In this document: positions 6,713-32,000 of the stretch, in pieces
How positions within the stretch are numbered: position 1 is the first letter of the stretch
Layout: every line of letters starts with the position of its first letter
Source: Candidatus Methanophagaceae archaeon
Lineage (GTDB): Archaea; Halobacteriota; Syntropharchaeia; Alkanophagales; Methanospirareceae
Length of the DNA: 32,000 nucleotides
Assembly (NCBI GenBank): GCA_003194425.1
Contig: PQXB01000001.1
Coordinates: forward strand, 550,444-582,443
Reading direction: 5' to 3'
Notes under the pieces: model-generated
The model's database searches: none
Told to the model about the DNA's origin: nothing
The model's input: only the letters and a program-made list of their open reading frames with translations
Translations under genes and position numbers: made by a program

Positions 6713-6786
6713 CCTTCCTTCTACCTTCCTTCTACCTTCCTTCTACCTTCCTTCTACCTTCCTTCTACCTTCCTTCTACCTTCTTT
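6713..6786. repeat. 11-nt tandem repeat ctaccttcctt x about 6.5, in the atpH-atpE spacer
   Basis: ctac recurs at 6721, 6732, 6743, 6754, 6765 and 6776. In mRNA sense the unit is AAGGAAGGUAG. Confidence 0.95.
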
Positions 6787-6794
6787 CCTTCCAC

Positions 6795-7112: not shown

Positions 7113-7158
7113 TATATTTTTTATACGAATTTTCTTTAAAATAATCTTTTCTTATTTT

Positions 7159-7230
7159 CGGTTCGGTTCGGTTCGGTTCGGTTCGGTTCGTTTCGTTTCG
7201 TTTCGTTTCGATTCGGTTCGTTTCGTTTCG
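7159..7230. repeat. pentanucleotide microsatellite (CGGTT)5(CGTTT)4 CGATT CGGTT (CGTTT)2, in the divergent atpH/grpE intergenic region
   Basis: Read directly; about 14.4 units. Confidence 0.95.
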
Positions 7231-11424: not shown

Positions 11425-13107
11425 ATGCAACGGCGCAGCGAAGAGTGGACCGAAAAATACCGACCAAAGAGGTTAAGAGAGGTTGTTGGGAATGAGAAAG
11501 CGGTAGAAGACTTGAAAGAGTGGGCAGAAGCCTGGGCAGAAGCCTGGACAGGCGGCAGAGACCACAAAGCAAAGCCCAAAAAAGCCGTTCTGCTTCACGG
11601 ACCACCGGGGTGCGGCAAGACCTCGGCAGCCTACGCCCTCGCCTCTGAACGCGAGTGGGAAGTCGTGGAATTGAACGCGTCAGACCAGAGGAACGCAGGC
11701 GTGATAAAACGCATTGTGGCTCCTGCCGTTGCGAGCAAGACCTTCACCGAGGCGACGAGGCTGATTGTTCTTGACGAGGCGGACAACCTGCACGGCAACG
11801 AAGACCGCGGTGGAGCGAGGGCGGTAACAGAAATCGTTAAGAGAAGCACGCAGCCGATAATTCTCATCGCCAACGACAAACACGGGCTGGGTAGAACGCT
11901 GCTTCAGAATTGCAAACAAATTCGGTTCCAAAGGGTAAGAACAGGGACGGTCTTTCGTGTGCTGCGAAAGATAAACGACGAGGAAGGAGAAGGGGGTAGG
12001 GGGGGTGAGGGAATTGAGGATGCGACGCTACTTGCTTTAGCGAAAAACGCTGCTGGCGACTTGCGGTCTGCAGTGAACGACTTGCAGGCTCTCTCGCTCT
12101 CTGCTTCACACTCTGCTTCACACTCTGCTTCACACTCTGCTTCACACTCTGCTTCTCTCTCGACTTCTCCGTCCGCTTCGCTAAAAGAGCGAGAAATAGC
12201 GACGGGCGGGAGGGACGCTGAAGAAGACATTTTTGGTGTCTTGAGCAAGATTTTTGGTGTAGGTGGAGGAGGAGACGGAGGGGAGGGCGGGAGAGGAGGG
12301 GGCTACAAGATGCAGGAGGCTCTTTCGTCGCTTTACAGCCTTGACAAGACGCCCGAGGAGAGCATTCAATGGATTTACAAGAACTTCTCGTCTGAGTTCG
12401 GTGCAAAAGGAGAAGAGAGTTTTTTGCACGGCTTGCACTACCTCGGCAGGGCGGATACTTTTTTGGGGCGGGCACGCAGCCGAGAGAATTTCAAGTTCTG
12501 GCGCTACGCGTCAAGTTTAATGGCTTGCAGCGTGATTTCCGCAGGAGAGGTGCAACGGGAGGAAAGGGGAGAACGGGGAGAACGGGGAGAACGGGGGGGG
12601 AGAAGAGAAGGAGGCTGGCAGAGGAGGTATTTTCGGTCGCCGTGGCAACGAGAGCGTGGGGAAGGGGGCGAAGGTGGCAGGAAATCTGAACCGAGAAGAG
12701 AAGAAGTAGCGAAGAAAATCGCAGACTACTGCAAAGTCCCGCTGAGCTACGCTCGGCTTTTTGTCGTCCCGTTTTTGAAATTTTTCTTCGAGGACGAGGG
12801 AAAGGCGGTTGAGACCACGGCACTACTGCAACTGGACGCTCGGCAAGTGGCTTTTTTGGTGGAGCGAGAAGAGAGAGCGAAGAGAATTTACGAGGCAGCG
12901 GCAGTTGCAAGAGCGGTAAAAAAGGAGAAGGAGGGGGTAAAGGAGGCAGTAGTGAAGGAAGAGGAGGAGGAGAGGGAGGAGGAAGAGAAGGAGGAGAGGG
13001 AGGAGGAAGTGGAGGGGGAGGAGGCGGTTGAGAAAGGCGAGGCTAAAACAGAAGTTGGAGAAGTAAAAAAAGATCAAAAGACTTTGGCAGATTTTTGGGG
13101 GTCGTGA
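11425..13107 (+). CDS. rfcL: replication factor C large subunit
   Basis: WTEKYRPKRLREVVGN, GPPGCGKTS and LIVLDEADNL, with an acidic C-terminal tail. Several low-complexity inserts. Confidence 0.85.
   Translation: MQRRSEEWTEKYRPKRLREVVGNEKAVEDLKEWAEAWAEAWTGGRDHKAKPKKAVLLHGPPGCGKTSAAYALASEREWEVVELNASDQRNAGVIKRIVAPAVASKTFTEATRLIVLDEADNLHGNEDRGGARAVTEIVKRSTQPIILIANDKHGLGRTLLQNCKQIRFQRVRTGTVFRVLRKINDEEGEGGRGGEGIEDATLLALAKNAAGDLRSAVNDLQALSLSASHSASHSASHSASHSASLSTSPSASLKEREIATGGRDAEEDIFGVLSKIFGVGGGGDGGEGGRGGGYKMQEALSSLYSLDKTPEESIQWIYKNFSSEFGAKGEESFLHGLHYLGRADTFLGRARSRENFKFWRYASSLMACSVISAGEVQREERGERGERGERGGRREGGWQRRYFRSPWQRERGEGGEGGRKSEPRREEVAKKIADYCKVPLSYARLFVVPFLKFFFEDEGKAVETTALLQLDARQVAFLVEREERAKRIYEAAAVARAVKKEKEGVKEAVVKEEEEEREEEEKEEREEEVEGEEAVEKGEAKTEVGEVKKDQKTLADFWGS
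12099..12155. repeat. 12-nt tandem repeat ctctgcttcaca x4.75 inside rfcL (encodes SHSA repeats)
   Basis: Read directly; four perfect copies plus a partial one. Confidence 0.95.
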
Positions 13108-14440: not shown

Positions 14441-15904
14441 TTATCTTCTTAACAACTCCCCCAAAATAACTCCCTCAACCTCCTCTAACGGCAACGGCAA
14501 TTGACTCGGCGATTTTATCTCCAGCCGCTCTTTTATTTTCCACATTTTACACTCCTCCCTCAACCTCTTGTACCCCCCACCCGTAATGTTCAGCAAAACC
14601 CGCTCCTCTTTCCCGACGAAACCCTCTTCAACCGCTTTAATCAGAGAGGCAACCGCTACTGACGCCGCAGGGTCTAAATCTACCCCCTCCTCGCTCTCAA
14701 ACAACTTTTCCGCTTCTCTACACTCGTCGTTAGTCACTCCGTAGATTTCTCCGTTCGTGTCCTTGAGCATTTCGTACACGCCACCTCTGACAGAATACGG
14801 AGGATTCCTCGTAGAAAGCACATCCGCGTACATTTTTTTTATCGCCTCCTCCGCATTCTTCATATCCTTCTCCGCGATTATTTCTACCCTCCTACCGTCC
14901 TGCCACGCGTAAAACATCGGCGCGAACGGAAGGTTCTGAGAAATAACAATTTTCGGCATTTTCCCGCCGAACCGCCCGTCCCCGAGCAGCCGACTAAAAG
15001 CCTCCCACGCCGCAATCGCACCCGTGCCACTGCCAACCGCTTGGAAATAATAGTCTGGCAGAACTTTCATAAAGAACGCGGCTTCTAGCTCCACCACACC
15101 CATTCCATCCCGCCTCGCCACATTTCTCGCACCTCCTTCTGCGATTAACCCGCCACCGCCTCTTCCTCCTCTCTCCACTCTTCCTCCTCTCTCCACTCTT
15201 CCTCCTCTCTGCACCAAGTCCTTGCCGACTGCAATCGCGTCCGAGTAGTCGCCGTCCACCGAGATTAAGAAAATGTTGTCGTGCTTCTTTGTTTCCGTTT
15301 CCGGTTCTACGGTTGTCCACATTCGGTGAAGGCAACTCTTCGGCACGACCGCGACTACGGGTATTCCTGTCAGAGCGGCGACCTCTGCGAAGGCTCTTGA
15401 AGTGTTCCCTGCAGAAGGCACAACCAAAATCTTCCCTCCGCCTCCTCCTCCACTGTCTCCTCCACCGTCTCCTCCTCCGCCTCCTCCACCGTCTCCTCCT
15501 CCGTCTCCTCCTCCGTCTCCTGCCTTCTCCTTCGCCCGCTGAAAAGTAGGTGCCGCTTCCAACTCCTTGAAGGTGCAGGTCTTCATAAAAGCCCCCTTCT
15601 CAGGCCAGTAACCGTTGAACGCAACGAACAAATTATTCAACCCTAACTCCCTTCCCAGCCCCTCCTCACTCTTGTACGCAACCGGGCTCGAGCCTGCACT
15701 CGCGACAGCGGGCAACGGCAACGCCTCTTCCACAGGCAGCCAGTCCAGGTAGTTGAAGAGTCCTCTTCCCGAGAGTTTCCTTACCTGCTTTCTTTTGTAC
15801 GCAGTTCTTAACAACGCGTCGTGACCCCGCGGGCAGGTGTTCGTGTACCTGTCCAAAATGGGCTTCCCGCACTCCAAACACCTCAACTGATATTTTAAAG
15901 CCAT
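14441..15904 (-). CDS. threonine-synthase-like PLP enzyme, most similar to cysteate synthase (coenzyme M biosynthesis)
   Basis: N-terminal C..C Zn-ribbon-like motif. Blocks FNGYWPEKGAFMKTCTFKELEA, SAGNTSRAFAEV, GGARNVARRDGMG, YFQAVGSGTG and NPPYSV match my recollection of methanogen cysteate synthase. Two large Gly-rich repeat inserts. Confidence 0.65.
   Translation of the reverse strand: MALKYQLRCLECGKPILDRYTNTCPRGHDALLRTAYKRKQVRKLSGRGLFNYLDWLPVEEALPLPAVASAGSSPVAYKSEEGLGRELGLNNLFVAFNGYWPEKGAFMKTCTFKELEAAPTFQRAKEKAGDGGGDGGGDGGGGGGGDGGGDSGGGGGGKILVVPSAGNTSRAFAEVAALTGIPVVAVVPKSCLHRMWTTVEPETETKKHDNIFLISVDGDYSDAIAVGKDLVQRGGRVERGGRVERGGRGGGGLIAEGGARNVARRDGMGVVELEAAFFMKVLPDYYFQAVGSGTGAIAAWEAFSRLLGDGRFGGKMPKIVISQNLPFAPMFYAWQDGRRVEIIAEKDMKNAEEAIKKMYADVLSTRNPPYSVRGGVYEMLKDTNGEIYGVTNDECREAEKLFESEEGVDLDPAASVAVASLIKAVEEGFVGKEERVLLNITGGGYKRLREECKMWKIKERLEIKSPSQLPLPLEEVEGVILGELLRR
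15160..15213. repeat. 18-nt tandem repeat ctcttcctcctctctcca x3 inside the cysteate-synthase-like gene (encodes ERGGRV repeats)
   Basis: Read directly; two perfect copies and one with a single mismatch. Confidence 0.95.
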
Positions 15905-20494: not shown

Positions 20495-21646
20495 ATGAAA
20501 ACCTGTAAAACAGAGCAAGTAGAACGACTCGGCGAAGTAAGATTAGTTGAAAGAATAACAAAACAATTTTCTGCAAATGCAAATGCGAACGAGCAAGTCG
20601 TAACCGCAGGTGCAGGAGAGGACGACTGTGCTGTGTTGGACTTGGACGAAGCCAAAGCAAAAGCCAACTACAACTCCAAGTACCTCGTCGTCACCACAGA
20701 CACGCTGCAAGAGTCAACGCACTTCCCTGCGGGCATCTCGCCGTTCCAAATCGGCTGGAGTGCGGTTGCAGTGAACTTAAGCGACATCGCCGCGATGGGA
20801 GCGCGCCCGTTTGCTTTTACGCTCGCGTTGGGCGTCCCTGCAGAGACTGAGACCGTGTTTGTGGACGAGGTGGTGCAGGGGGTGAAAAAATGTGCCTCTG
20901 CTTACAACACCGCAGTCGTCGGCGGGGACACAACAAGGAGCAAAGAGGTTGTCTTAACAGGGACCTGTCTCGGATTTGCAGACCGACCCGTGAGGCGGGC
21001 GGGTGCTGAGGTAGGAGACTTGGTCTGTGTTACGGGGTCGCTTGGTAACGCTGCTCTCGGGCAGAAAATAGTAGAGAGGGAAGTAGCGGAGGGGGAGAAG
21101 GGGGGGAAGAAGGAGATGAAGAAGGAGAGGAAGAAGGAGATGAAGAAGGAGAGGAAGAAGGAGGGGGAGGAGGTAGAATTAAAAGTGCCAAAAAAGGTTG
21201 AAGAAGCGGCGAAGAAGGCTCTGTTTCAGCCCGTGCCGAGAGTAAAAGAAGGCGTCGTTCTCGCCGATTCCGGACTGGTAACTTCAATGATTGACATTAG
21301 CGACGGTCTCGCACTTTCTTTAGCCGCACTCGCAAAGAGCAGCAAAGTCGGGTTCGAGATTTACGAGGAGAAAGTGCCAGTGGCAGACCTCCGTCTCCGC
21401 AGAGAACTTGCGTTCTACTACGGCGGCGACTACGAACTGCTGTTCACGCTTCGAGCGTCAGGGGGAGCAGAAGAGGGAAGAGCAGAGGCAGGAGCGCGAG
21501 GGAACGCGGAACTGCTGAGGAGACTGCAGAAGGAGGTAAAAATGAGTGTTGTAGGCAGAGTGTTGCCGGCGGAGGAGGGGCTTTATTTTAAAAGAGAGGA
21601 CGGCACGAAGGAGGAGGTGAAAATAAAAGGCTACCAGCATTTTTAA
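20495..21646 (+). CDS. thiL: thiamine-monophosphate kinase (AIR-synthase-related)
   Basis: LGEVRLVERI, GEDDCAVLDL, VVTTDTLQESTHFP, IGWSAVAVNLSDIAAMGARP. Contains a K/E-rich repeat insert. Confidence 0.75.
   Translation: MKTCKTEQVERLGEVRLVERITKQFSANANANEQVVTAGAGEDDCAVLDLDEAKAKANYNSKYLVVTTDTLQESTHFPAGISPFQIGWSAVAVNLSDIAAMGARPFAFTLALGVPAETETVFVDEVVQGVKKCASAYNTAVVGGDTTRSKEVVLTGTCLGFADRPVRRAGAEVGDLVCVTGSLGNAALGQKIVEREVAEGEKGGKKEMKKERKKEMKKERKKEGEEVELKVPKKVEEAAKKALFQPVPRVKEGVVLADSGLVTSMIDISDGLALSLAALAKSSKVGFEIYEEKVPVADLRLRRELAFYYGGDYELLFTLRASGGAEEGRAEAGARGNAELLRRLQKEVKMSVVGRVLPAEEGLYFKREDGTKEEVKIKGYQHF
21106..21163. repeat. 24-nt tandem repeat gaagaaggagatgaagaaggagag x2.4 inside thiL (encodes KKEMKKER repeats)
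   Basis: Read directly; 21106-21129 and 21130-21153 are identical. Confidence 0.95.
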
Positions 21647-22338: not shown

Positions 22339-22387
22339 TTTCCTCTTCTCCTCTTTCTCCCTCCCTCTTCCTTTTTACCCATTCTCT

Positions 22388-22721: not shown

Positions 22722-24140
22722 TCAAAAAATAAGCGCTCTCAACCCCTCCCAAATCTCCTGCACATTTATTCCCAACTCGTGCCCCACGACACCAATTCCG
22801 ATGAAAGTCCCTGCAATGCTTCCTAAGTTCGCAAGTGCAGCCACAAGAATGGTCTTAAACAGCCGATTTCTCGCCAACTCCCGCAACGACTCAACACTCA
22901 GCATTCCCTTTGCGTCCTCCACTCTCGGCTTTCGGAAGTGTGCTTCTGCCAAGCCCGCAAACCAGCCCACGGCTAAAAACGGGTTCAGAGAAGTGAGCCA
23001 AGCCACCGAGAAGGCGGTAACCGCAGAGAGCGGGTGCCCCCGCGCGACGACGACGCCCGACGCGGACAAGACGCCGTTTATCAGCACCCAGTAAAGAAAC
23101 GCTCTGAGAAGAGTGTCAAGCGAGAAACCCGAGAAGAAGACCGCAAGGAGAATAATTACGAGAGCCACGCCCATTCCGACGCCCAGCAGATGTTTTATGC
23201 TGAACCGCCCACTGAACCGCTTCTTCGGGAGCGAGACCAGTTCCGACCTCGGCGGAATCAACTCCGGGTGAGCAAGAAGCCTCTTTATCCCCGCAACATG
23301 CCCCGCACCGACGACCGCAACGATTTTCCTCCCCTCTCCCTCTTTATTAGTACATTCTTTAGTAAGTGAGTGCTCTTCCCCCTTCTTAGTGCAGGTTCTT
23401 TCTTTAGAACGAAAGTGCAGGTTGAGCAAATTTCCAGCGATGTAAGCGTCCCGTTCGTCCAGCAGAGCCTTCGCAGCACCCGGCGAGAACGCCCTCAACT
23501 CCTCCATTAACTCCGAGACCACATCCTCGTCTGTCAGACTGTCCAAGTCGATTTCTCTCACCCCTTCTCGTCCTGCTTCTCGCCCTGCTTCCCGTCCTGC
23601 ACCCGCGCCCCGCCCAATTTTGAAGTTTTCAATTTTAAAACTTCCAATGTTCCCGATCGCGAGAACGACTGAGAAAATCATCTTCACCTTCTCCAAAAAC
23701 TTCATCTTCCTCCAGAACCGCTGCATCGTCACTTGAATCGGGCGGTCAACGAGTGCGACCTCACAGCCACGCTCCTCCGCCTTTTTTATCGCCGCCATCA
23801 TATCCGCACCAGGCTCAACCCCTAACTCTGACCCCATTTTCCGCTGCACGTACGCAAGCAGCCAGTGCATCAGCAGTAAAAACGGACTGCTACCAGTTTC
23901 ACTTCCACCTCTCCTGCCTCGTCCCCCGCCCAAGACATCTTTCACCGAAAACTCGCCTACCTCGTCGTCGCCGCCGTCGCCGCCGCCCACATTCCCTTTC
24001 AACGCCTCGTACCGCCCCTTGCACAACTCAACCGCAACCACCTCCGGCTCTTCTCGCTCAATTGTCTCCTCCACCTCCCGCACGCTTTTCTCCAAAATGT
24101 GCCCCGTCCCCACCAAAATTATGCTATTTTTATCTTCCAT
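22722..24140 (-). CDS. TraB/PrgY-family protein with C-terminal membrane domain
   Basis: IILVGTGHILEKSVREVEETI...PEVVAVELC..R, then a multi-TM C-terminus. The ATG at 24140 forms a TGATG junction with the upstream ORF. Contains EAGR repeats. Confidence 0.8.
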   Translation of the reverse strand: MEDKNSIILVGTGHILEKSVREVEETIEREEPEVVAVELCKGRYEALKGNVGGGDGGDDEVGEFSVKDVLGGGRGRRGGSETGSSPFLLLMHWLLAYVQRKMGSELGVEPGADMMAAIKKAEERGCEVALVDRPIQVTMQRFWRKMKFLEKVKMIFSVVLAIGNIGSFKIENFKIGRGAGAGREAGREAGREGVREIDLDSLTDEDVVSELMEELRAFSPGAAKALLDERDAYIAGNLLNLHFRSKERTCTKKGEEHSLTKECTNKEGEGRKIVAVVGAGHVAGIKRLLAHPELIPPRSELVSLPKKRFSGRFSIKHLLGVGMGVALVIILLAVFFSGFSLDTLLRAFLYWVLINGVLSASGVVVARGHPLSAVTAFSVAWLTSLNPFLAVGWFAGLAEAHFRKPRVEDAKGMLSVESLRELARNRLFKTILVAALANLGSIAGTFIGIGVVGHELGINVQEIWEGLRALIF

Positions 24141-24442
24141 CACTTTTCAACAACGCTCACAAGCTCCCTCACCGAGCCAACCCTCTCCTTCACCTCCTCA
24201 ATCTCCAGCCTCGCCTCGTGAAACCCCTCAACGTGCAGGAACCAGGCTTGAGCCTCCTTGCTTTTGGAGAGCTCAAATCTGAACGCCAATTCCTTAACCG
24301 CCTCCTCTGCGGCTTTGTACAACTTCTCGCTCGCCTGCACCGCGTCCTCCCTCGCAACGCACTTCCCGGCTTCAGCAAGCTTCCCGGCTTCAGCAAGCTT
24401 CCTTGACAGGAGTTCGAGCCTCCTCTCGTCTTTTGCCCTCAT
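24140..24442 (-). CDS. small helical protein, PaREP1-like
   Basis: AVQASEKLYKAAEEAVKELA...FHEARLE resembles the PaREP1 core. The ATG at 24442 has an upstream GAGGGG. Contains an 18-nt x2 duplication (24362-24397, KLAEAG KLAEAG). Confidence 0.45.
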   Translation of the reverse strand: MRAKDERRLELLSRKLAEAGKLAEAGKCVAREDAVQASEKLYKAAEEAVKELAFRFELSKSKEAQAWFLHVEGFHEARLEIEEVKERVGSVRELVSVVEK

Positions 24443-24452
24443 TCTTTTCCCC

Positions 24453-25613
24453 TCATTTTGTTCCGTACCGTGTTCCGTACCGCAGCAAAGCGGCAACGCC
24501 ACCAAACGCACGCTTCAACTGCGTACCCTCCTCAAAATCCGTCGAGACAACCTCCACCTCCGCCCCTGTCTCCTCTGCCTTCGCCACCAAATCCTGCATT
24601 AGTTCAGCACCAATCCCCTCGGAGAACAGGAGCGTGCCAACCGCACCCAGCTCCAACTTCCGCCGCACCTCCTCCTCGCCGTAGGCAACCCTGCTCGCGT
24701 CGTTCGCCAGCAGTTTCATAAACCGCTCCATCAGCCGCTTCTCGCTCATCAAATCCAGCCCTTCCAAAGCCCCTTCCGCCTTGTCCACAAGTTCAGAGAG
24801 CCCGGATTCGTCCGTGTAGGCGACATCAAAAATCCCGAGAATCTTGCCCTGCAACTCGTACTGCAGGTACGACCCTTTCAGAAACTCTTCCTTCGTCGGG
24901 CTCGGTCCACCGATTAGAATGCCCTTGAGCTCGCGGCTCATTGGCAGGAAAATCCGCGTTGCGTGCTCCCCGATTCGCTTGTAAAAGTCGTCGGTCGCGA
25001 TTTCCCGCAGCCTCTGAAATCGCAGTGCCGACTGCCCTCCTTTTCGTATTTTCCCGGGAACCGACGAGGTCAGGTGCTTCATCGCCTCCACCACCTTGCC
25101 CGTGAGCGTGCCGATCGTCGCCTCTCGCTTGTCAAGCACGACCAAGCCGTACTTCTCCTTCTCGCTCACCATTTCCTCCAACGGCTCGAGCAGGAACGAC
25201 GAGTCGCAGTGGTAAATGTAAGACTGCACCCTCTCCGGCGGTTCCACGATGAAAGCCTCGATGTCGGTCTTGTCCCCGCCCTTCGCGACCGCACCGCAGA
25301 AAATCACCACCCCGTTCTCACTTGCTCCTGCTACTCCTTCTCCTGCTGCACCTACTGTTCCCACTGCTCCTCCTTTTACACCGACATATTTTAGTTTGGA
25401 CAAAATGGAGTCCAGCGAGCTTTGAACGTTGGTTCGGGTGGACTTGCTTTTTATGTTCTTCGCCTGTCCGTACTCCTCGCGGAGGTGCGAAGTAACGTCC
25501 GAGATTTGCTTGTCAGGCGGAATGTAGACCGAGACGAGTTCTGTGCCTCTGCCTGCTTTCTGCCTCAGCTCTTCCAAGACCTTGCGGAATTCGTATCTTT
25601 TTATCTTGTTCAT
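24453..25613 (-). CDS. prf1: peptide chain release factor aRF1
   Basis: NIKS (AKNIKSKSTR), YIYHCDSSF and GGQ (RKGGQSALRF) motifs. The C-terminal RYGTRYGTK comes from a 12-nt x2 perfect repeat (24459-24482). Confidence 0.9.
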   Translation of the reverse strand: MNKIKRYEFRKVLEELRQKAGRGTELVSVYIPPDKQISDVTSHLREEYGQAKNIKSKSTRTNVQSSLDSILSKLKYVGVKGGAVGTVGAAGEGVAGASENGVVIFCGAVAKGGDKTDIEAFIVEPPERVQSYIYHCDSSFLLEPLEEMVSEKEKYGLVVLDKREATIGTLTGKVVEAMKHLTSSVPGKIRKGGQSALRFQRLREIATDDFYKRIGEHATRIFLPMSRELKGILIGGPSPTKEEFLKGSYLQYELQGKILGIFDVAYTDESGLSELVDKAEGALEGLDLMSEKRLMERFMKLLANDASRVAYGEEEVRRKLELGAVGTLLFSEGIGAELMQDLVAKAEETGAEVEVVSTDFEEGTQLKRAFGGVAALLRYGTRYGTK

Positions 25614-25634
25614 ATTTCAAAATTTTCCAAAGTT

Positions 25635-25640
25635 AAAAAA
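25635..25640 (-). terminator. T6 run 8 nt downstream of the tRNA 3' end (possible archaeal terminator and/or TATA-like element for leaderless aRF1)
   Basis: The minus strand reads tacaaacTTTTTTaa immediately after the discriminator base. Confidence 0.3.
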
Positions 25641-25647
25641 GTTTGTA

Positions 25648-25832
25648 TGCGGCAACCGGGGCTCGAACCCGGGTTACAGGCTGTTTCCCTCCCTTTTTTC
25701 TCTTTCCTTTTTTGATCAACCTTTTCCTATCTTTCCTTTTTTGATCAACCTTTTCCTATCTTTCCTTTTTTGATCAACCTTTTCCTAAAAGGTTGTTGGG
25801 AAGCCCGTGTCCTTCCGCTAGACTATTGCCGC
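25648..25832 (-). tRNA. tRNA-Gly(CCC) with a 114-nt intron at the canonical 37/38 position
   Basis: Hand-folded.
- Acceptor stem: GCGGCAA/TTGCCGC, 7 perfect bp.
- D arm: GTCT-AGCGGAA-GGAC.
- Anticodon stem: CGGGC/GCCTG.
- Anticodon loop: TTCCCAA.
- T arm: CCGGG-TTCGAGC-CCCGG.
- Discriminator: A. CCA is not encoded.
- Exons: 25797-25832 and 25648-25682. Confidence 0.85.
25683..25796 (-). other. tRNA intron composed largely of a 29-nt tandem repeat (AAAAGGUUGAUCAAAAAAGGAAAGAUAGG x about 2.9; repeats at 25700-25783)
   Basis: GATC recurs at 25714, 25743 and 25772 (period 29). Intron 3' GGAA pairs with loop UUCC, giving a 4-bp central helix flanked by 3-nt bulges (BHB-like). Confidence 0.75.
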
Positions 25833-26129
25833 TTTTTTGTAGAGTCTCGCAAACTCCTCGAACTCCGACGCCAACGAGGCAGCCGCCGACTTCACCGCCT
25901 CCACCGCGTCCCCGCTCTCCTTCCCCTCTCGCATTTTCACGAACAAAACCGGGTTGCTCACCAGCGTGTGTTTAATGCTGTAGCTCGCGATTTCAACCCC
26001 TTCGTTCTCCAACAACTTCGAGGTCAGCGGTGCCAAAAGCGTGTGGTCCTCGCCTTCTACCTCTAACTTCACCGCTCTCCCCTTCCTCTCCAGCACCTTC
26101 ACCTTCCTACTCTCCCTCTGCCCTTCCAT
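25818..26129 (-). CDS. rpoL: DNA-directed RNA polymerase subunit L (Rpo11)
   Basis: KVKVLERKGRAVKLEVEGEDHTLLAPLTSKLL...VEIASYSIKHTLVSNPVLFVK matches the Rpo11 pattern. The last 4 codons plus the stop overlap the tRNA 5' end. Confidence 0.8.
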   Translation of the reverse strand: MEGQRESRKVKVLERKGRAVKLEVEGEDHTLLAPLTSKLLENEGVEIASYSIKHTLVSNPVLFVKMREGKESGDAVEAVKSAAASLASEFEEFARLYKKAAIV

Positions 26130-26132
26130 TTT

Positions 26133-26216
26133 CTAAACCTCTACCCTAAACCTCTACCCTAAACCTCTAAACTAAACCTCCACAAACTAAACCTCCAAAC
26201 TAAACCTCCAAAACCC
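26133..26216. repeat. degenerate tandem array with core ctaaacctc x6 (13-nt unit ctaaacctctacc x2, then ctaaacctcc variants), in the csl4-rpoL spacer
   Basis: Read directly. In mRNA sense the units are (G/A)GAGGUUUAG. The csl4 terminus GUGGUUUAG resembles the unit. Confidence 0.9.
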
Positions 26217-26786
26217 CTAAACCACACCCTTTCCATAATCGTAAGATATTTTTCTCGTCTCCTCCCTCCTGCACCGCTCACACACCAGTACATTTCCCTT
26301 CCTCTTCAGCTCGCTTTTGCATTTCCCGCACATTGCTTTTATCACGCCCAAGTCCCGCTCTTCGGTGCTGAGCCTCAGCGCCTTCGCGTCGATCACCTTC
26401 GCCTTCACCAGATCAAGAACGCCAAACTCCTGCTGCAATTCATTTACATACCCAGTTTTTACATTTGAGATGTGAATAACGGCTTGCGTGGGCGCAACGA
26501 TTTCCCGCTGCTCCTTCCCCACAACGCACGCAAGGCTCACAACAGCGACCATTTCCTTTAAGTCCTCTACTCTGCCCACTACCACTGTGCCCTCTTTAAT
26601 CACCGGCGGCGTCTCAACCGCAGGCAGAACGCTTATTTCCCTCTGCTCATTTACGCTGACCTCCCCAATCTGCAGGGCAAACAAGTTCCCCTCTTCCGCG
26701 CAGACCCCATTTCCTGCCGTAAACTCCTCGGAAGTCCCCACGAAATCCCCTGGAATTACGATTGTTTCATTCTTATTTTTTTCCAT
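26217..26786 (-). CDS. csl4: exosome complex RNA-binding protein Csl4
   Basis: N-terminal VIPGD..G, an S1 domain (GTVVVGRVEDL...IHISNV), and a C-terminal Zn-ribbon CGKCKSEL...CERCRREE. The position next to rpoL is a conserved archaeal arrangement. Confidence 0.8.
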   Translation of the reverse strand: MEKNKNETIVIPGDFVGTSEEFTAGNGVCAEEGNLFALQIGEVSVNEQREISVLPAVETPPVIKEGTVVVGRVEDLKEMVAVVSLACVVGKEQREIVAPTQAVIHISNVKTGYVNELQQEFGVLDLVKAKVIDAKALRLSTEERDLGVIKAMCGKCKSELKRKGNVLVCERCRREETRKISYDYGKGVV

Positions 26787-26847: not shown

Positions 26848-27117
26848 TTAAATTCCATCCTTAAATCTCAAATCAGCGCCATCTCTTTTCGCACTCGCAG
26901 GGAAAGTCCCCGCACTTAATTCCACAAGCACTTGAAAATCCGTAAGCGATTTCCCCGTATTCTCCTCTACCTCCTTGTAGGAGCTCCTGTCGTAGTAGCT
27001 CCAGTCTCCACTGCCTGCGTTTGATAACGCCGACACCTTTCCTATCTTTCCTATCCCTCCCGCCAGCAACACCAGCAGGGTTCCTAATGCGATTTTTTTA
27101 TTCTGCATTTCTATCAT
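26848..27117 (-). pseudogene. N-terminal remnant of a secreted DUF2341-like surface protein
   Basis: Signal peptide followed by W.YY...DFQVLVEL...GADLRFKDG, which resembles the start of a DUF2341 domain. The ORF stops right there (89 aa). Confidence 0.4.
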
Positions 27118-27194
27118 TTTTCTTTTTATTCTACTTAATTCTTTTTATTCTACTTAAATATTTAATCAAACTTTTCCTAAGAATTTGTTGTTCA

Positions 27195-27655
27195 GCACCT
27201 CTGAAGACAGAGTCGGAAGTCGCCACGAACACGTGCCACAGGTGCAACTCCTTCGTCAGCCGCACGAAGAAGTTGAAGAGTTTGTAAATTATAAAATCGT
27301 CCACTTTCGTCCACTTTCAAGTCCTCAATCACCCGCAACTCGTCCAGCACCAGCACAGGCGGGCTGGGTGTGGAGGCGGGGACGGCCTCACGCCCTCTTT
27401 CGTAAAACGCTCTGAGAACGGTTTCGATGTAAACGAACGCGTCTTCTACCTCTTTCTCTGTAAATAACCACAGAAAAATGTCCTTTGGTATCGGAATTCC
27501 GCAGTATCTCTCGGGCAGAACTTTCACTATCGGCTTGAGAAACTCTTTTATCCTCTCTTACCTCGCCTCGTGCTCCTCATCAAAGAGGATTTTTTGAAAT
27601 CGTCGTAATCCCAGATGAACCTGCCCCGCAGATTTTTGTAATTTATCAGAGACTC
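27195..27655 (-). pseudogene. degraded paralog of the Arch_ATPase gene at 2198-3283 (frameshifts, in-frame stop, both termini missing)
   Basis: Three minus-strand frames together read YKNLRGRFIWDYDDF / RYCGIPIPKDIFLWLF...PPVLVLDELRVIEDLKVD / [30 protein letters not shown]. The intact gene reads [15 protein letters not shown]...[16 protein letters not shown]...[48 protein letters not shown]. Confidence 0.65.
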
Positions 27656-30316: not shown

Positions 30317-31119
30317 ACTAACTCCTGCCCCCCTTTTGAATACATTCTAAATATTTTCATCCCCCATTCTTCTTTTCCTGCTTCTCTTCCTGCTTCTTTT
30401 CCTGCTTCTTTTCCTGCTTCTCTTCCTGCTTCTCTTCTTCCCTCGTCCCCCTCGCCCGCCTCGCAGATTTCAATCAGGTTGAACGACGGCGGAATGTTCC
30501 ACTTCACCTTGCTACTGCACGCCGTCCCCGCGTTCACTACTGCCGTCCCGTTCAAGTTCCAGACCCACGGCACGTGTTTGTGTCCACAGAGCACGAGGTC
30601 GGTCCCGCACCGAAGAAGCAGTTCAAGAACATCTCCTGCGTCTGTCAGAATGTTCCGCTCTCGCCCTGTCTTTGGAACCGAAATTAAATGGTGGTGGAGA
30701 GCGACGACCTTAAAACTGTCCGTCCAGTCAGTCGTAAGGCAGCGCTCAATCCACTCATATTTCTCTCTCCCCACGTGCCCCTCGTCCAGGTCAGGCTGTG
30801 TAGAATCCACGCCGACAACTGTCACTCCCTTGTGCTGCAGAATCTTCGACCTCGCTCCGAAAATCTCCTCAAAGCAAAGGTCGCCCACGTTCCTCGCGTC
30901 GTGATTTCCCGGAACCACCACCTTCACCTCACACTCGATTCTCTCGATGTAACTCTTCGCTCGCACAAACTCTGAATAACTGCCCTCGTTGGTTAAATCG
31001 CCTGTAACTACCACAATCTCTGGCTTTACCTCGTTTATCCTTTTTATCACTTTCTCTGCCAACTCTGGCAGGAAATGCGATTTCCCTGTGTGAATATCCG
31101 AAATGTGCACGATTTTCAT
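30301..31119 (-). CDS. calcineurin-like metallophosphoesterase
   Basis: Motifs SDIH, TGDL, GNHD, HHH and CGHKH in canonical order. The C-terminal EAG(R/K) repeat tail comes from a 12-nt x5 array. Confidence 0.8.
   Translation of the reverse strand: MKIVHISDIHTGKSHFLPELAEKVIKRINEVKPEIVVVTGDLTNEGSYSEFVRAKSYIERIECEVKVVVPGNHDARNVGDLCFEEIFGARSKILQHKGVTVVGVDSTQPDLDEGHVGREKYEWIERCLTTDWTDSFKVVALHHHLISVPKTGRERNILTDAGDVLELLLRCGTDLVLCGHKHVPWVWNLNGTAVVNAGTACSSKVKWNIPPSFNLIEICEAGEGDEGRREAGREAGKEAGKEAGREAGKEEWGMKIFRMYSKGGQELVWEKK
30373..30432. repeat. 12-nt tandem repeat t(t/c)ttcctgcttc x5 inside the phosphoesterase gene
   Basis: cctg recurs at 30377, 30389, 30401, 30413 and 30425. Confidence 0.95.
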
Positions 31120-31143: not shown

Positions 31144-32000
31144 TCACTTCCTCCTTTTCTCCCTCCCTCTGCGCACCGCGCAGGCTACTCCCGCTACCGC
31201 CAACAAACCTGCAACTCCAAATACCGCGTCAAATCCAGGTTGCGTTGGTGTCGTCGTTGGTGTTTCCGTTGCAGTTGGTCTCGGCGTCGTCTTGGGAGTC
31301 AGTTCAGGTGTTAGCGTCTCCTCAAGCGTCTCCTCAAGCGTCTCCTCAAGCGTCTCCTCAACAGGCAGTTTTATGTAGCCCATTTCGTCCACCACTTCCT
31401 GCCCCTCCTCGCTCAGCACGAAGTCAATGAACGCCGCCTCAAGTTCGCTCGGCGCCCCGTTCGTCACGAGGTACAAGTTCCGCGAGATTGGGTAAGCCCC
31501 AGAGAGCACGTTCTCCTCGGTCGCTGCCACGCCGTCTATTTTGACCGCTTTTACGGACGCGTCAAGGTAGCCGAGAGAGAGGTAGCCAATGCTCCTCTCG
31601 TCGCTACTGACCGTTGCTCTCACTTCGCCGTTCGAGGATTTTACCGCCGCGTTGGCAGCGATTTCCTTCCCAAACGGTTTCAGTACCGCCGTCTCAAAGC
31701 AGTCCCTCGTTCCAGACCCTTCTTCGCGCGTTACTACCCGAATCGCCTCGTCTCGTCCGCCCAGTTCCTTCCAGTTCGTTATTTCGCCTGCGAAGATTTT
31801 CGCTGCCTCTTCCAACTCCAGCCCTTGCCCTTGTCCCTGCCCCTGTTCGCTCACTGGATTGCTCGGATGCAGAACAATCGCCACGCTGTCCTTCCCTACG
31901 ACCACTGGCTTCAAGTTCGGAAACGCCTCCAGCTCTTTCACTTTTACATCCCGCGAGGCTGCGCCGATGTCAATTTCGCCTGCGCCCACTGCTTTTACGC
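31144..32000 (-). CDS. pstS: phosphate-binding protein PstS with PGF-CTERM sorting signal (5' end beyond the window)
   Basis: PBP-type core (IDIGAASRD, GSGTRD). A Thr/Pro-rich linker is followed by PGFDAVFGVAGLLAVAGVACAVRRGREKRRK. The frame stays open upstream of 31989 to the window edge. Confidence 0.85.
   Translation of the reverse strand, partial: VKAVGAGEIDIGAASRDVKVKELEAFPNLKPVVVGKDSVAIVLHPSNPVSEQGQGQGQGLELEEAAKIFAGEITNWKELGGRDEAIRVVTREEGSGTRDCFETAVLKPFGKEIAANAAVKSSNGEVRATVSSDERSIGYLSLGYLDASVKAVKIDGVAATEENVLSGAYPISRNLYLVTNGAPSELEAAFIDFVLSEEGQEVVDEMGYIKLPVEETLEETLEETLEETLTPELTPKTTPRPTATETPTTTPTQPGFDAVFGVAGLLAVAGVACAVRRGREKRRK
31314..31361. repeat. 12-nt tandem repeat gcgtctcctcaa x4 inside pstS (encodes ETLE repeats)
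   Basis: Read directly; four perfect copies. Confidence 0.95.

What the first reader, a model, noticed from the sequence alone, without database searches (positions are those of the whole stretch)
25648..25832. tRNA-Gly(CCC) interrupted by a 114-nt intron built from a 29-nt tandem repeat
Hand folding gives a clean 71-nt tRNA with a perfect acceptor stem, a TTCGAGC T-loop and A73. The two exons are separated at position 37/38 by 114 nt.

A bulge-helix-bulge core can be drawn. Loop nucleotides UUCC pair with intron GGAA, which lies 2 nt before the 3' splice site. This leaves the 3-nt bulges CA|A and AC|A.

Most of the intron is AAAAGGUUGAUCAAAAAAGGAAAGAUAGG repeated about 2.9 times. The intron 5' end, CAACCUUUU, is complementary to the AAAAGGUUG that starts every repeat unit, so several alternative inner helices are possible.

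Archaeal tRNA introns are usually short and unique in sequence. I have not seen an intron expanded by tandem duplication, and it raises the question of how much repeat expansion the splicing endonuclease tolerates.
Basis: partly seen in the sequence, partly recalled or inferred. Interest (0 to 1): 0.75.

Follow-up and report, generated by a model that had tools for sequence, protein, structure and literature searches.

The report
Variable-copy repeat inside an archaeal tRNA intron
This is a real tRNA-Gly(CCC) gene of a methane-oxidising ANME-1 archaeon, split by an ordinary archaeal intron whose dispensable middle has grown by tandem duplication and varies from one to three copies between natural strains; it is a neat case, not a new mechanism.

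Summary
A 71-nt tRNA-Gly(CCC) lies on the minus strand at 25648-25832, split at 37/38 by a 114-nt intron (25683-25796). The intron holds a perfect 29-nt x 3.0 tandem array (25701-25787).

ARAGORN in intron mode and the Rfam tRNA model (35.3 bits, threshold 29) both call the gene.

The host is an ANME-1 (Methanophagales) archaeon. The same tRNA sits between rpoL and aRF1 throughout ANME-1. It is intronless in some lineages and carries homologous introns of 31-111 nt in others.

All 19 distinct junction variants keep the 4-bp central helix (100% paired). A closing inner helix is 75% paired, with compensatory changes.

Within the window's own species (about 98-99% identity), independent assemblies carry 1 (56 nt), 2 (85 or 84 nt) or 3 (114 nt) units, so the array is a polymorphic minisatellite.

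This genome has about 8 times more tandem arrays than other ANME-1 loci, and most other strain indels I examined also lie at called tandem arrays. The repeats lie inside the loop closed by the inner helix and are most likely neutral slippage products. Splicing endonucleases already excise kilobase inserts from rRNA precursors, so tolerance of length is not an open question.

The parts
25648..25832 (-). tRNA-Gly(CCC) gene including intron; the mature product is 71 nt with A73
   Evidence: ARAGORN in intron mode; Rfam RF00005 at 35.3 bits
25797..25832 (-). 5' exon (36 nt, standard positions 1-37)
   Evidence: identical or nearly identical to the 5' part of intronless orthologues
25683..25796 (-). 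Intron of 114 nt at the canonical 37/38 position
   Evidence: alleles of 56, 84 and 85 nt in conspecific assemblies
25648..25682 (-). 3' exon (35 nt, positions 38-73)
25799..25802 (-). 5' strand of the BHB central helix: U32 U33 C34 C35
   Evidence: Paired in 100% of cells across 19 distinct junction variants. The register matches the published rule that the first two anticodon bases pair with the intron (PMC4090602).
25685..25688 (-). 3' strand of the BHB central helix: intron GGAA (positions -6..-3)
   Evidence: every intron variant ends GGGAAAY or GGGGAAU/A
25796..25798 (-). 5' bulge C36 A37 | a+1, holding the 5' splice site
   Evidence: Read from the sequence, with the splice position from ARAGORN
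25682..25684 (-). 3' bulge a-2 c-1 | A38, holding the 3' splice site
   Evidence: Read from the sequence
25787..25795 (-). 5' arm of the inner helix: CAACCUUUU (intron +2..+10)
25689..25697 (-). Distal 3' arm AAAAGGGAG (intron -15..-7). It forms the canonical closing helix h': c2:g-7, a 2x2 AA/AG loop, then 6 bp.
   Evidence: The register is conserved across the family: 74.7% of cells paired and 6 of 10 pairs with changes on both sides
25701..25787 (-). Perfect tandem array, 29 nt x 3.0. Each unit consists of two diverged subrepeats of about 14 nt, each starting AAAAGG. The array varies from 1 to 3 units in the population.
   Evidence: TRF; subrepeats; alleles
25775..25783 (-). Proximal arm 1: AAAAGGUUG. 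It pairs 9 bp with the 5' arm and is the thermodynamically favoured hairpin.
   Evidence: RNAfold MFE and pair probability of 0.96
25746..25754 (-). Proximal arm 2: AAAAGGUUG. Its UUGAUCAA palindrome can pair with that of arm 3.
25717..25725 (-). Proximal arm 3: AAAAGGUUG
25818..26129 (-). rpoL (RNA polymerase subunit L). Its last 5 codons and TAG stop overlap tRNA nt 1-15.
   Evidence: Pfam RNA_pol_L_2; the overlap (..AAIV*) is conserved in most ANME-1 loci
24453..25613 (-). aRF1 (release factor), 35 nt downstream of the tRNA; used as the synteny anchor
   Evidence: Pfam eRF1_1/2/3; homologues
25635..25640 (-). T6 run 8 nt after A73, a likely tRNA terminator
   Evidence: Read from the sequence; the function is inferred

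Best explanation
This is the single syntenic tRNA-Gly(CCC) gene of an ANME-1 (Methanophagales) archaeon. It is interrupted at 37/38 by a standard archaeal protein-spliced intron.

**Inferred splicing pathway.** In the precursor, anticodon-loop bases U32-C35 pair with intron GGAA (-6..-3). This gives a 4-bp helix flanked by two 3-nt bulges (CA|a and ac|A), with the anticodon stem outside and an intron helix inside. The splicing endonuclease EndA cuts in both bulges. The ligase RtcB joins the exons, and the intron is released, probably as a circle.

**The repeat.** The intron interior is unconstrained A/G-rich sequence that evolves by replication slippage.
- An old duplication with a period of about 13-14 nt copied the 3' arm (AAAAGG...).
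- In this species a 29-nt unit (two subrepeats) duplicated recently and now segregates as 1, 2 or 3 copies.
- The window carries the longest allele seen.

The repeats lie within the loop closed by the inner helix, so they are passengers and not functional parts. They are one instance of a genome-wide excess of unstable minisatellites.

**Shown:** gene, intron position, BHB-compatible pairing and its conservation, repeat structure, and copy-number polymorphism.
**Inferred:** actual splicing, which inner helix forms in vivo, and neutrality of the repeats.
For: **Gene and orthology**
- Gene and intron are called by ARAGORN and Rfam.
- Neighbouring genes are archaeal (RpoL, Csl4, aRF1, RNase P p30, GluRS). 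aRF1 homologues are named ANME-1/Methanophagales.
- The orthologous tRNA lies upstream of aRF1 in 22 of 23 ANME-1/Alkanophaga loci (L011-L033). Twelve are intronless and ten carry introns of 47-111 nt. The metagenome scan adds introns of 31-49 nt.
- Exons stay nearly identical to the intronless orthologues.

**Structure**
- On 19 distinct junctions, the hBHBh' model has 86.7% of cells paired, against 58-62% when slid by one column.
- The central helix is 100% paired. The inner helix h' is 74.7% paired, with 6 pairs changed on both sides.
- The register agrees with the published BHB definition (PMC4090602; PMC7714728).

**Polymorphism**
- 1 unit: L140/L143 and L146.
- 2 units: L001-L004, L006-L008, L126, L129, L139, L141, L142.
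- 2 units minus 1 nt: L144.
- 3 units: the window, L118, L133/L145.
- These contigs are about 98-99% identical.
- The 3-unit allele occurs on both aRF1 variants (386 and 388 aa), so copy number has changed recurrently.

**Slippage context**
- Most of the short indels between conspecific contigs fall at tandem arrays that TRF calls.
- The window has 6.9 arrays per 10 kb, against 0.86 in other ANME-1 loci and 0.25 in outgroups.
- The unit occurs nowhere else in the window or the fetched loci.
- The modelled cost of the canonical BHB register (about 4-5 kcal/mol) is the same for 0-6 units.
Against: - There are no RNA data, so splicing is inferred only.
- In this species the canonical closing helix is imperfect: one C:G pair, a 2x2 AA/AG loop, then 6 bp. 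The published definition of hBHBh' asks for at least two Watson-Crick pairs next to the bulge.
- The nearest-neighbour model strongly prefers the proximal hairpin (P about 0.96 for 1 and 3 units) over the closing helix.
- The proximal hairpin also covaries (AACC/GGUU to AAAC/GUUU, and to AAGC/GCUU in L115). It may therefore be selected and not a mere by-product.
- The EndA type of this lineage was not determined.
- A second, intronless tRNA-Gly(CCC) elsewhere in the genome cannot be excluded from a 32-kb window.
- Copy numbers in small-k assemblies may be collapsed. I take Logan to be one such assembly, from my own knowledge of it and not from a tool result. Two Logan contigs (L010, L147) begin inside the array.
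Confidence: 0.85

Rival explanations
1. The repeated 3' arms are functional. Each AAAAGG(UUG) arm competes with the distal arm for the single 5' arm. Copy number would then set the fraction of precursor that folds into a cleavable hBHBh', tuning the tRNA-Gly(CCC) supply. In that reading the minisatellite is a contingency locus or splicing rheostat.
For: - Seven AAAAGG sites are complementary to the single CCUUUU.
- The model predicts that the proximal arm captures the 5' arm at P about 0.96 with 1, 3 or 5 units, and 0.28-0.43 with 2, 4 or 6 units. The closing helix reaches only 0.003-0.15.
- Arm duplications recur across the family (L097, L011, L024).
- The proximal hairpin shows compensatory changes.
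- Copy number has changed recurrently on different haplotypes.
Against: - The genome is full of unstable minisatellites with no obvious role, so slippage alone explains the array.
- Related lineages do well with no intron at all.
- The modelled cost of the BHB core does not depend on copy number.
- There are no expression data.
Confidence: 0.07
2. The intron encodes a functional RNA. This could be a modification guide like the box C/D RNA in the tRNA-Trp intron, or a stable circular RNA with repeated binding sites. Duplication would multiply that function.
For: - There is precedent: the Haloferax tRNA-Trp intron guides 2'-O-methylation of C34 and U39 (PMC4090602).
- The motif UUGAUCAAAAA is conserved in many ANME-1 variants, and a near-identical core (27 of 32 nt) occurs in L115, a contig that looks like Aenigmarchaeota.
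- UUGAUCAA is an 8-nt palindrome that could pair between units or between molecules.
Against: - There is no C box (UGAUGA) or D box (CUGA); UGAUCA lacks the required GA.
- Rfam finds nothing but the tRNA, even at E<=10.
- The interior is replaced by unrelated sequence in sister lineages (the 36-, 58-, 66- and 108-111-nt types) and is lost entirely in others.
- The conserved motif is explained by common descent from an arm duplication.
Confidence: 0.04
3. The feature is an artefact or a dead gene. Either the three-copy array is an assembly error, or the tRNA is a pseudogene disrupted by an insertion.
For: - Tandem repeats are prone to mis-assembly.
- Some short contigs (L010, L147) begin inside the array.
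- Default tRNA finders miss the gene.
Against: - The 3-unit allele appears in three non-identical assemblies (the window, L118, L133) and is only 87 nt long. I expect single reads and large k-mers to span it; that is my judgement, not a test on reads.
- The exons are intact and match the intronless orthologues.
- Intron boundaries preserve a BHB across lineages whose aRF1 is only 70-80% identical.
- The insertion point is exactly 37/38.
Confidence: 0.03

Closest known systems
Canonical archaeal pre-tRNA introns at 37/38 with an hBHBh' motif, spliced by EndA and RtcB (e.g. Haloferax volcanii tRNA-Trp 103 nt, tRNA-Met 75 nt, tRNA-Gln 31 nt)
   Same: - The position is the same: one nucleotide 3' of the anticodon.
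- There is a 4-bp central helix that uses the first two anticodon bases.
- There are two 3-nt bulges, with the anticodon stem as the outer helix.
- The length of 114 nt is close to the 103-nt Haloferax intron.
   Different: - The host tRNA is Gly(CCC).
- The interior is a perfect 29-nt x 3 tandem array that is polymorphic (1-3 units) within a species.
- The closing helix is imperfect, and up to three perfect alternative arms compete with it.
- No box C/D guide is present.
Thermoproteales tRNA introns that spread by transposition (Fujishima et al. 2010, as summarised in PMC4090602)
   Same: - Intron sequences are related across genes or lineages.
- L115, a contig that looks like Aenigmarchaeota, has a tRNA-Gly(CCC) intron whose first 32 nt match the ANME-1 core at 27 positions.
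- Its other introns start with similar AACC(C)UUUU arms.
   Different: - In ANME-1 only this one syntenic gene was seen with the intron.
- Change is by internal duplication, deletion and precise loss. I found no evidence of spread to new sites.
- The repeat unit is not dispersed.
Prokaryotic minisatellites (VNTR loci) generated by replication slippage
   Same: - The units are perfect and head-to-tail.
- Copy-number alleles of 1, 2 and 3 occur among near-identical strains.
- There are many other such loci in the same genome.
   Different: It sits inside a tRNA intron, so every allele must keep the flanking splice structure. I found no report of this location in the searched literature.

Membership tests
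Archaeal BHB (protein-spliced) tRNA intron | It interrupts an otherwise complete tRNA whose spliced product folds as a cloverleaf | tested here: met
   ARAGORN folds the 71-nt spliced product as tRNA-Gly(ccc). Rfam tRNA scores 35.3 bits over the split gene. It differs by 1 nt from the intronless orthologue L028, which scores 66.4 bits.
Archaeal BHB (protein-spliced) tRNA intron | Central 4-bp helix flanked by two 3-nt bulges that carry the splice sites, with the first two anticodon bases in the helix | tested here: met
   U32 U33 C34 C35 pair with g-6 g-5 a-4 a-3, and the bulges are CA|a and ac|A. The helix is 100% paired in 19 distinct variants, against 58-62% paired for the whole structure when slid by one column. 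Definition from PMC4090602. A nearest-neighbour model prefers a register shifted by one, at a cost of about 4-5 kcal/mol, so the enzyme-bound form is inferred.
Archaeal BHB (protein-spliced) tRNA intron | Outer helix h with at least 2 Watson-Crick pairs on the exon side | tested here: met
   The anticodon stem C27-C31 with G39-G43 is 100% paired, with CG/UA covariation at 27:43.
Archaeal BHB (protein-spliced) tRNA intron | Inner helix h' with at least 2 Watson-Crick pairs closing the bulge on the intron side (strict hBHBh') | tested here: inconclusive
   In the window, c2:g-7 is followed by an AA/AG 2x2 loop and then 6 bp. Relatives such as L097, L121, L132 and L137 have 9-10 perfect pairs. 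Family-wide, 74.7% of cells are paired. A proximal 9-bp hairpin is thermodynamically preferred.
Archaeal BHB (protein-spliced) tRNA intron | The host encodes the splicing endonuclease EndA and the ligase RtcB | not tested
   I did not scan the window's ORFs for them and had no query sequence. I expect them from general knowledge that all archaea encode EndA. The enzyme type (alpha4, alpha'2, (alpha-beta)2 or epsilon2) is unknown.
Archaeal BHB (protein-spliced) tRNA intron | The intron is actually excised and the exons are ligated | not testable with these tools
   No transcript data are available.
Intron-encoded box C/D guide RNA (tRNA-Trp type) | C box (RUGAUGA) and D box (CUGA) forming a K-turn, plus a guide complementary to the tRNA | tested here: not met
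   No CUGA is present, and UGAUCA lacks the second GA (read from the sequence). There is no Rfam match at E<=10 other than tRNA.
Minisatellite / VNTR | Head-to-tail units whose copy number differs among conspecific genomes | tested here: met
   TRF reports 29 nt x 3.0 at 100%. Alleles of 56, 84, 85 and 114 nt occur in contigs about 98-99% identical.

The most novel reading that the evidence does not exclude
The minisatellite may be a tuning device and not junk. Each extra AAAAGGUUG arm would sequester the single 5' arm away from the distal closing arm. Slippage between 1, 2 and 3 (or more) units would then reversibly change how much precursor adopts the cleavable hBHBh' fold, and so the supply of tRNA-Gly(CCC) for GGG codons. 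That would be a contingency locus acting through tRNA splicing. The predicted odd/even alternation in arm capture would be its signature.
Probability: 0.06. Interest if true: 0.7.

Novelty: new member of a known kind. Interest (0 to 1): 0.35.

Why it matters
**Value.** This locus gives a clean natural allelic series (56, 85 and 114 nt), plus a family of homologous introns from 31 to 111 nt and several intronless orthologues, all at one syntenic tRNA gene.
- It shows directly that the interior of an archaeal tRNA intron evolves by slippage while the junction pairing is held fixed.
- It shows that introns can be lost precisely and repeatedly.
- It provides ready-made substrates for testing how competing inner helices affect EndA cleavage.

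**Practical point.** Default tRNA finders miss this gene. Such genomes would be scored as lacking tRNA-Gly(CCC).

**Limit.** It does not reveal a new mechanism. Long inserts in BHB substrates are already known.

Tried and rejected
- **Default detectors.** Default ARAGORN and Rfam at gathering threshold returned nothing. Intron mode and lax filters were needed.
- **Box C/D or other known RNA in the intron.** No boxes are present, and only chance-level Rfam hits appeared (IMES-5, RsmY, NPPA-AS1; E 0.3-5).
- **Mobile or dispersed element.** The unit is found only in the intron.
- **Assembly artefact.** Rejected, because each allele recurs in independent assemblies. A caveat remains for small-k contigs.
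- **Literature.** Searches for ANME-1 tRNA introns, and for tandem repeats or length polymorphism in archaeal tRNA introns, found nothing relevant.
- **L115 organism.** The first ORF search gave no hits. A second protein pointed to Aenigmarchaeota.

Full report
**1. What is there**

On the minus strand, 25832-25648 reads as three parts:
- a 36-nt 5' exon (GCGGCAAUAGUCUAGCGGAAGGACACGGGCUUCCCA);
- a 114-nt intron;
- a 35-nt 3' exon (AGCCUGUAACCCGGGUUCGAGCCCCGGUUGCCGCA).

The tool's default ARAGORN run and Rfam at gathering threshold report nothing. With introns allowed, ARAGORN reports tRNA-Gly(ccc) c[25648,25832] i(37,114) and folds the spliced 71-mer as a clean cloverleaf. With lax filters, the Rfam tRNA model spans the whole gene at 35.3 bits (gathering 29, E=7e-6), with a 117-nt insertion in the anticodon loop.

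TRF finds a 29-nt unit at 25701-25787 with 3.0 copies, 100% identity and score 174. This is the top array of the window. A 20-mer of the unit occurs three times against 0.01 expected, and nowhere else in the window or in 138 fetched loci.

**2. Host and context**

The neighbouring genes are archaeal:
- csl4 (26217-26786);
- rpoL (25818-26129);
- aRF1 (24453-25613);
- RNase P p30, GluRS and an ABC transporter.

aRF1 homologues at 65-80% identity are named ANME-1, Methanophagales or Methanospirareceae. Coding is dense and the coding strands are purine-rich.

**3. Orthologues**

I fetched loci around aRF1 relatives from GTDB species genomes and scanned them with ARAGORN. A tRNA-Gly(CCC) lies immediately upstream of aRF1 in 22 of the 23 ANME-1 and Alkanophaga loci (L011-L033). 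No tRNA was found in the Syntrophoarchaeum, Methanosarcinales and other outgroup loci.
- Twelve orthologues are intronless (for example L016, L022, L028 and L030-L033).
- Ten have an intron at the same 37/38 site, with lengths of 47, 48, 52, 58, 60, 66, 108 and 111 nt.
- A metagenome scan for the 5' exon-intron junction added lengths of 31, 36, 42, 43, 48 and 49 nt.
- Exons are nearly invariant. L028 differs from the window's spliced product by one D-loop base and scores 66.4 bits.

On an aRF1 neighbour-joining tree, the intron is absent from the outgroup branch (Alkanophaga L031/L033 with L030/L032). Within core ANME-1 it is patchy, and close pairs differ in presence: L017/L019, L023/L024 and L016/L091. 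The intron types share a core (ACAACCUUUUU ... AAAAAGGUUG ... GGGAAAC). A single gain followed by several precise losses is therefore the simplest history. This is inference.

**4. Splice structure**

The published definition is a 4-bp helix flanked by two 3-nt bulges, with the first two anticodon bases in the helix (PMC4090602; PMC7714728). The window fits it:
- U32 U33 C34 C35 (25802-25799) pair with g-6 g-5 a-4 a-3 (25688-25685).
- The bulges are C36 A37|a1 and a-2 c-1|A38.
- The outer helix is the anticodon stem.

I built 48-nt junction mini-substrates from 19 distinct variants and counted pairs.
- Overall, 86.7% of cells pair, against 58.2% and 62.3% when the partner is slid by -1 or +1.
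- None of 500 shuffles reaches the observed pairing or covariation score.
- The central helix and the anticodon stem are 100% paired, with CG/UA covariation at 27:43.
- The closing inner helix (+2:-7 to +11:-16) is 74.7% paired, and 6 of its 10 pairs change on both sides.

In the window's species the closing helix is c2:g-7, then an AA/AG 2x2 loop, then CCUUUU:AAAAGG. This is weaker than the 9-10 perfect pairs of L097, L121, L132 and L137.

**5. Anatomy of the repeat**

The intron consists of a 5' arm (ACAACCUUUUAGG) followed by seven subrepeats of 14-15 nt. Each subrepeat starts with AAAAGG, which is complementary to CCUUUU of the 5' arm. The 29-nt unit is a pair of diverged subrepeats (AAAAGGUUGAUCAA + AAAAGGAAAGAUAGG). 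The last subrepeat (AAAAGGGAGGGAAAC) supplies both the closing arm and the GGAA of the central helix.

Relatives show the same habit:
- L097 has two perfect copies of the 3' arm, 13 nt apart.
- L011 has a duplicated 5' arm and nested helices.
- L019 has a duplicated ACAA.

The array (intron positions 10-96) lies inside the loop closed by h' (+2..+10 with -15..-7).

**6. Polymorphism**

Contigs from independent assemblies carry identical or 99%-identical aRF1 and identical RpoL. They carry the same tRNA with different intron lengths.

| Units | Intron length | Contigs |
|---|---|---|
| 1 | 56 nt | L140/L143 (36.7-kb contig NODE_1148), L146 |
| 2 | 85 nt | L001-L004, L006-L008, L126, L129, L139, L141, L142 |
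| 2, minus 1 nt | 84 nt | L144 |
| 3 | 114 nt | window, L118, L133/L145 |

- These contigs are about 98-99% identical to the window.
- The 3-unit allele occurs with both aRF1 variants. The two variants differ by a GA dipeptide and one substitution. Copy number has therefore changed more than once, or alleles have recombined.
- Caveat: I take Logan to be a small-k assembly, from my own knowledge of it and not from a tool result, so its copy numbers may be collapsed. Two Logan contigs (L010, L147) begin inside the array.
- Each state also appears outside Logan, in ENA or JGI contigs whose names suggest SPAdes or large-k MEGAHIT assembly.

**7. Why a repeat here**

Most of the short indels between the window and conspecific contigs fall at tandem arrays that TRF calls:
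- 9 nt at 27047-27055;
- 12 or 24 nt at 23564;
- 7 nt at 27145-27151;
- 17 nt at 22356;
- a 93-nt indel that spans the 18-nt array at 24362-24402.

A 102-nt indel at 24255 and a 17-nt indel at 27655 are not at a called array.

The window holds 22 arrays with TRF score of at least 60 (6.9 per 10 kb). Other ANME-1 loci hold 0.86 per 10 kb and outgroups 0.25. The intron array is thus one product of a genome-wide tendency to slippage, landing in a place where length is free to vary.

**8. Folding**

RNAfold keeps the cloverleaf and a helix between the anticodon loop and the intron 3' end (P about 0.9) for 0-6 units. Forcing the exact canonical register costs about 4-5 kcal/mol whatever the copy number.

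The 5' arm is predicted to pair with the first proximal arm (P about 0.96 for 1 or 3 units, 0.28-0.43 for even numbers) and not with the distal arm (0.003-0.15). Which inner helix forms on the enzyme cannot be decided by computation. Both helices show compensatory changes in relatives.

**9. Comparison and novelty**

This is a member of the canonical archaeal BHB tRNA introns. Its length is just above the 103-nt Haloferax tRNA-Trp intron. [quoted passage not shown] Insert length as such is therefore not an open issue.

The unusual points are:
- the perfect, polymorphic minisatellite inside the intron;
- the family-wide history of arm duplication;
- the host tRNA, Gly(CCC).

I found no report of any of these in three literature searches. 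There is no box C/D element or other known RNA in the intron.

**10. Verdict**

The gene is real, the intron is real and the repeat is real.

The most likely explanation (0.85) is an ordinary spliced intron carrying a neutral, unstable minisatellite. A functional role for arm copy number in tuning splicing is possible but unsupported (about 0.06).

Interest is moderate. The locus is a good natural system for studying intron micro-evolution and EndA substrates, and it is not a new kind of element.

Noticed in passing
whole window (e.g. 6713-6787, 7157-7230, 12099-12179, 15435-15521, 21078-21168, 26133-26214, 30369-30437, 31313-31361): The genome is unusually rich in perfect or near-perfect tandem repeats, in both coding and intergenic DNA. 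There are 22 arrays with TRF score of at least 60 in 32 kb (6.9 per 10 kb). Other ANME-1 loci have 0.86 per 10 kb and outgroup loci 0.25. Several arrays differ in copy number between conspecific assemblies. The cause is unknown; a repair defect or the replication machinery are possibilities.
   Followed up: partly
window 25818-25832 (minus strand): The last five codons and the TAG stop of rpoL (..A A I V *) lie inside tRNA nucleotides 1-15. The overlap, with the same AAIV/AAVV/AAMV ending, is kept in most ANME-1 loci. RNase P cleavage at the tRNA 5' end would remove the rpoL stop codon from a shared transcript. No TATA-like box lies at the usual distance upstream of the tRNA.
   Followed up: partly
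window about 25320-25380 (aRF1 residues about 79-99): The aRF1 of this species carries an insert of about 20 residues rich in Gly, Ala and Val (KGGAVGTVGAAGEGVAGA..) that is absent from relatives (362-367 aa against 386). A GA-dipeptide indel is polymorphic between strains.
   Followed up: partly
L115 1-420 (Ga0315294_10082206); its proteins resemble Aenigmarchaeota: This contig has a tRNA-Gly(CCC) with a different acceptor stem and two introns: 64 nt at 37/38 and about 105 nt in the T-loop. The first 32 nt of the 37/38 intron match the ANME-1 core at 27 positions, with a compensatory C:G to G:C change in the hairpin. The adjacent tRNA-Val(UAC)-like gene also has an intron starting CAACCCUUUU. 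This could reflect an old shared intron, transfer between lineages, or convergence. ARAGORN misses both genes.
   Followed up: partly
L012, L013, L015, L105, L112, L125, L127 (orthologous tRNA): A sister ANME-1 clade has 108-111-nt introns with the same ends (ACAUG...GGAUGGGAAAU). The interior is unrelated and G/U-rich, forms a long hairpin and carries its own short repeats (CAGGUGU). This suggests replacement of the intron interior.
   Followed up: no
window 24255-24402 (ORF 24140-24511, minus strand, downstream of aRF1; its counterpart in L001-L004 is annotated PaREP1): Strains differ by 93-nt and 102-nt indels here, next to an 18-nt x 2.3 perfect repeat. The called product is 103 aa in some assemblies and 134 aa in others.
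   Followed up: partly
window 26133-26214: A 28-nt (13+15) tandem array, CTAAACCTC..., x 3 lies in the intergenic gap between csl4 and rpoL. A 2-nt indel separates strains here.
   Followed up: no
window 25614-25647: The 35-nt spacer between the tRNA and the aRF1 ATG holds TTTTTTAA about 20-28 nt before the ATG. It may act both as the tRNA terminator and as a TATA-like element for a nearly leaderless aRF1 mRNA. This is read from the sequence only.
   Followed up: no
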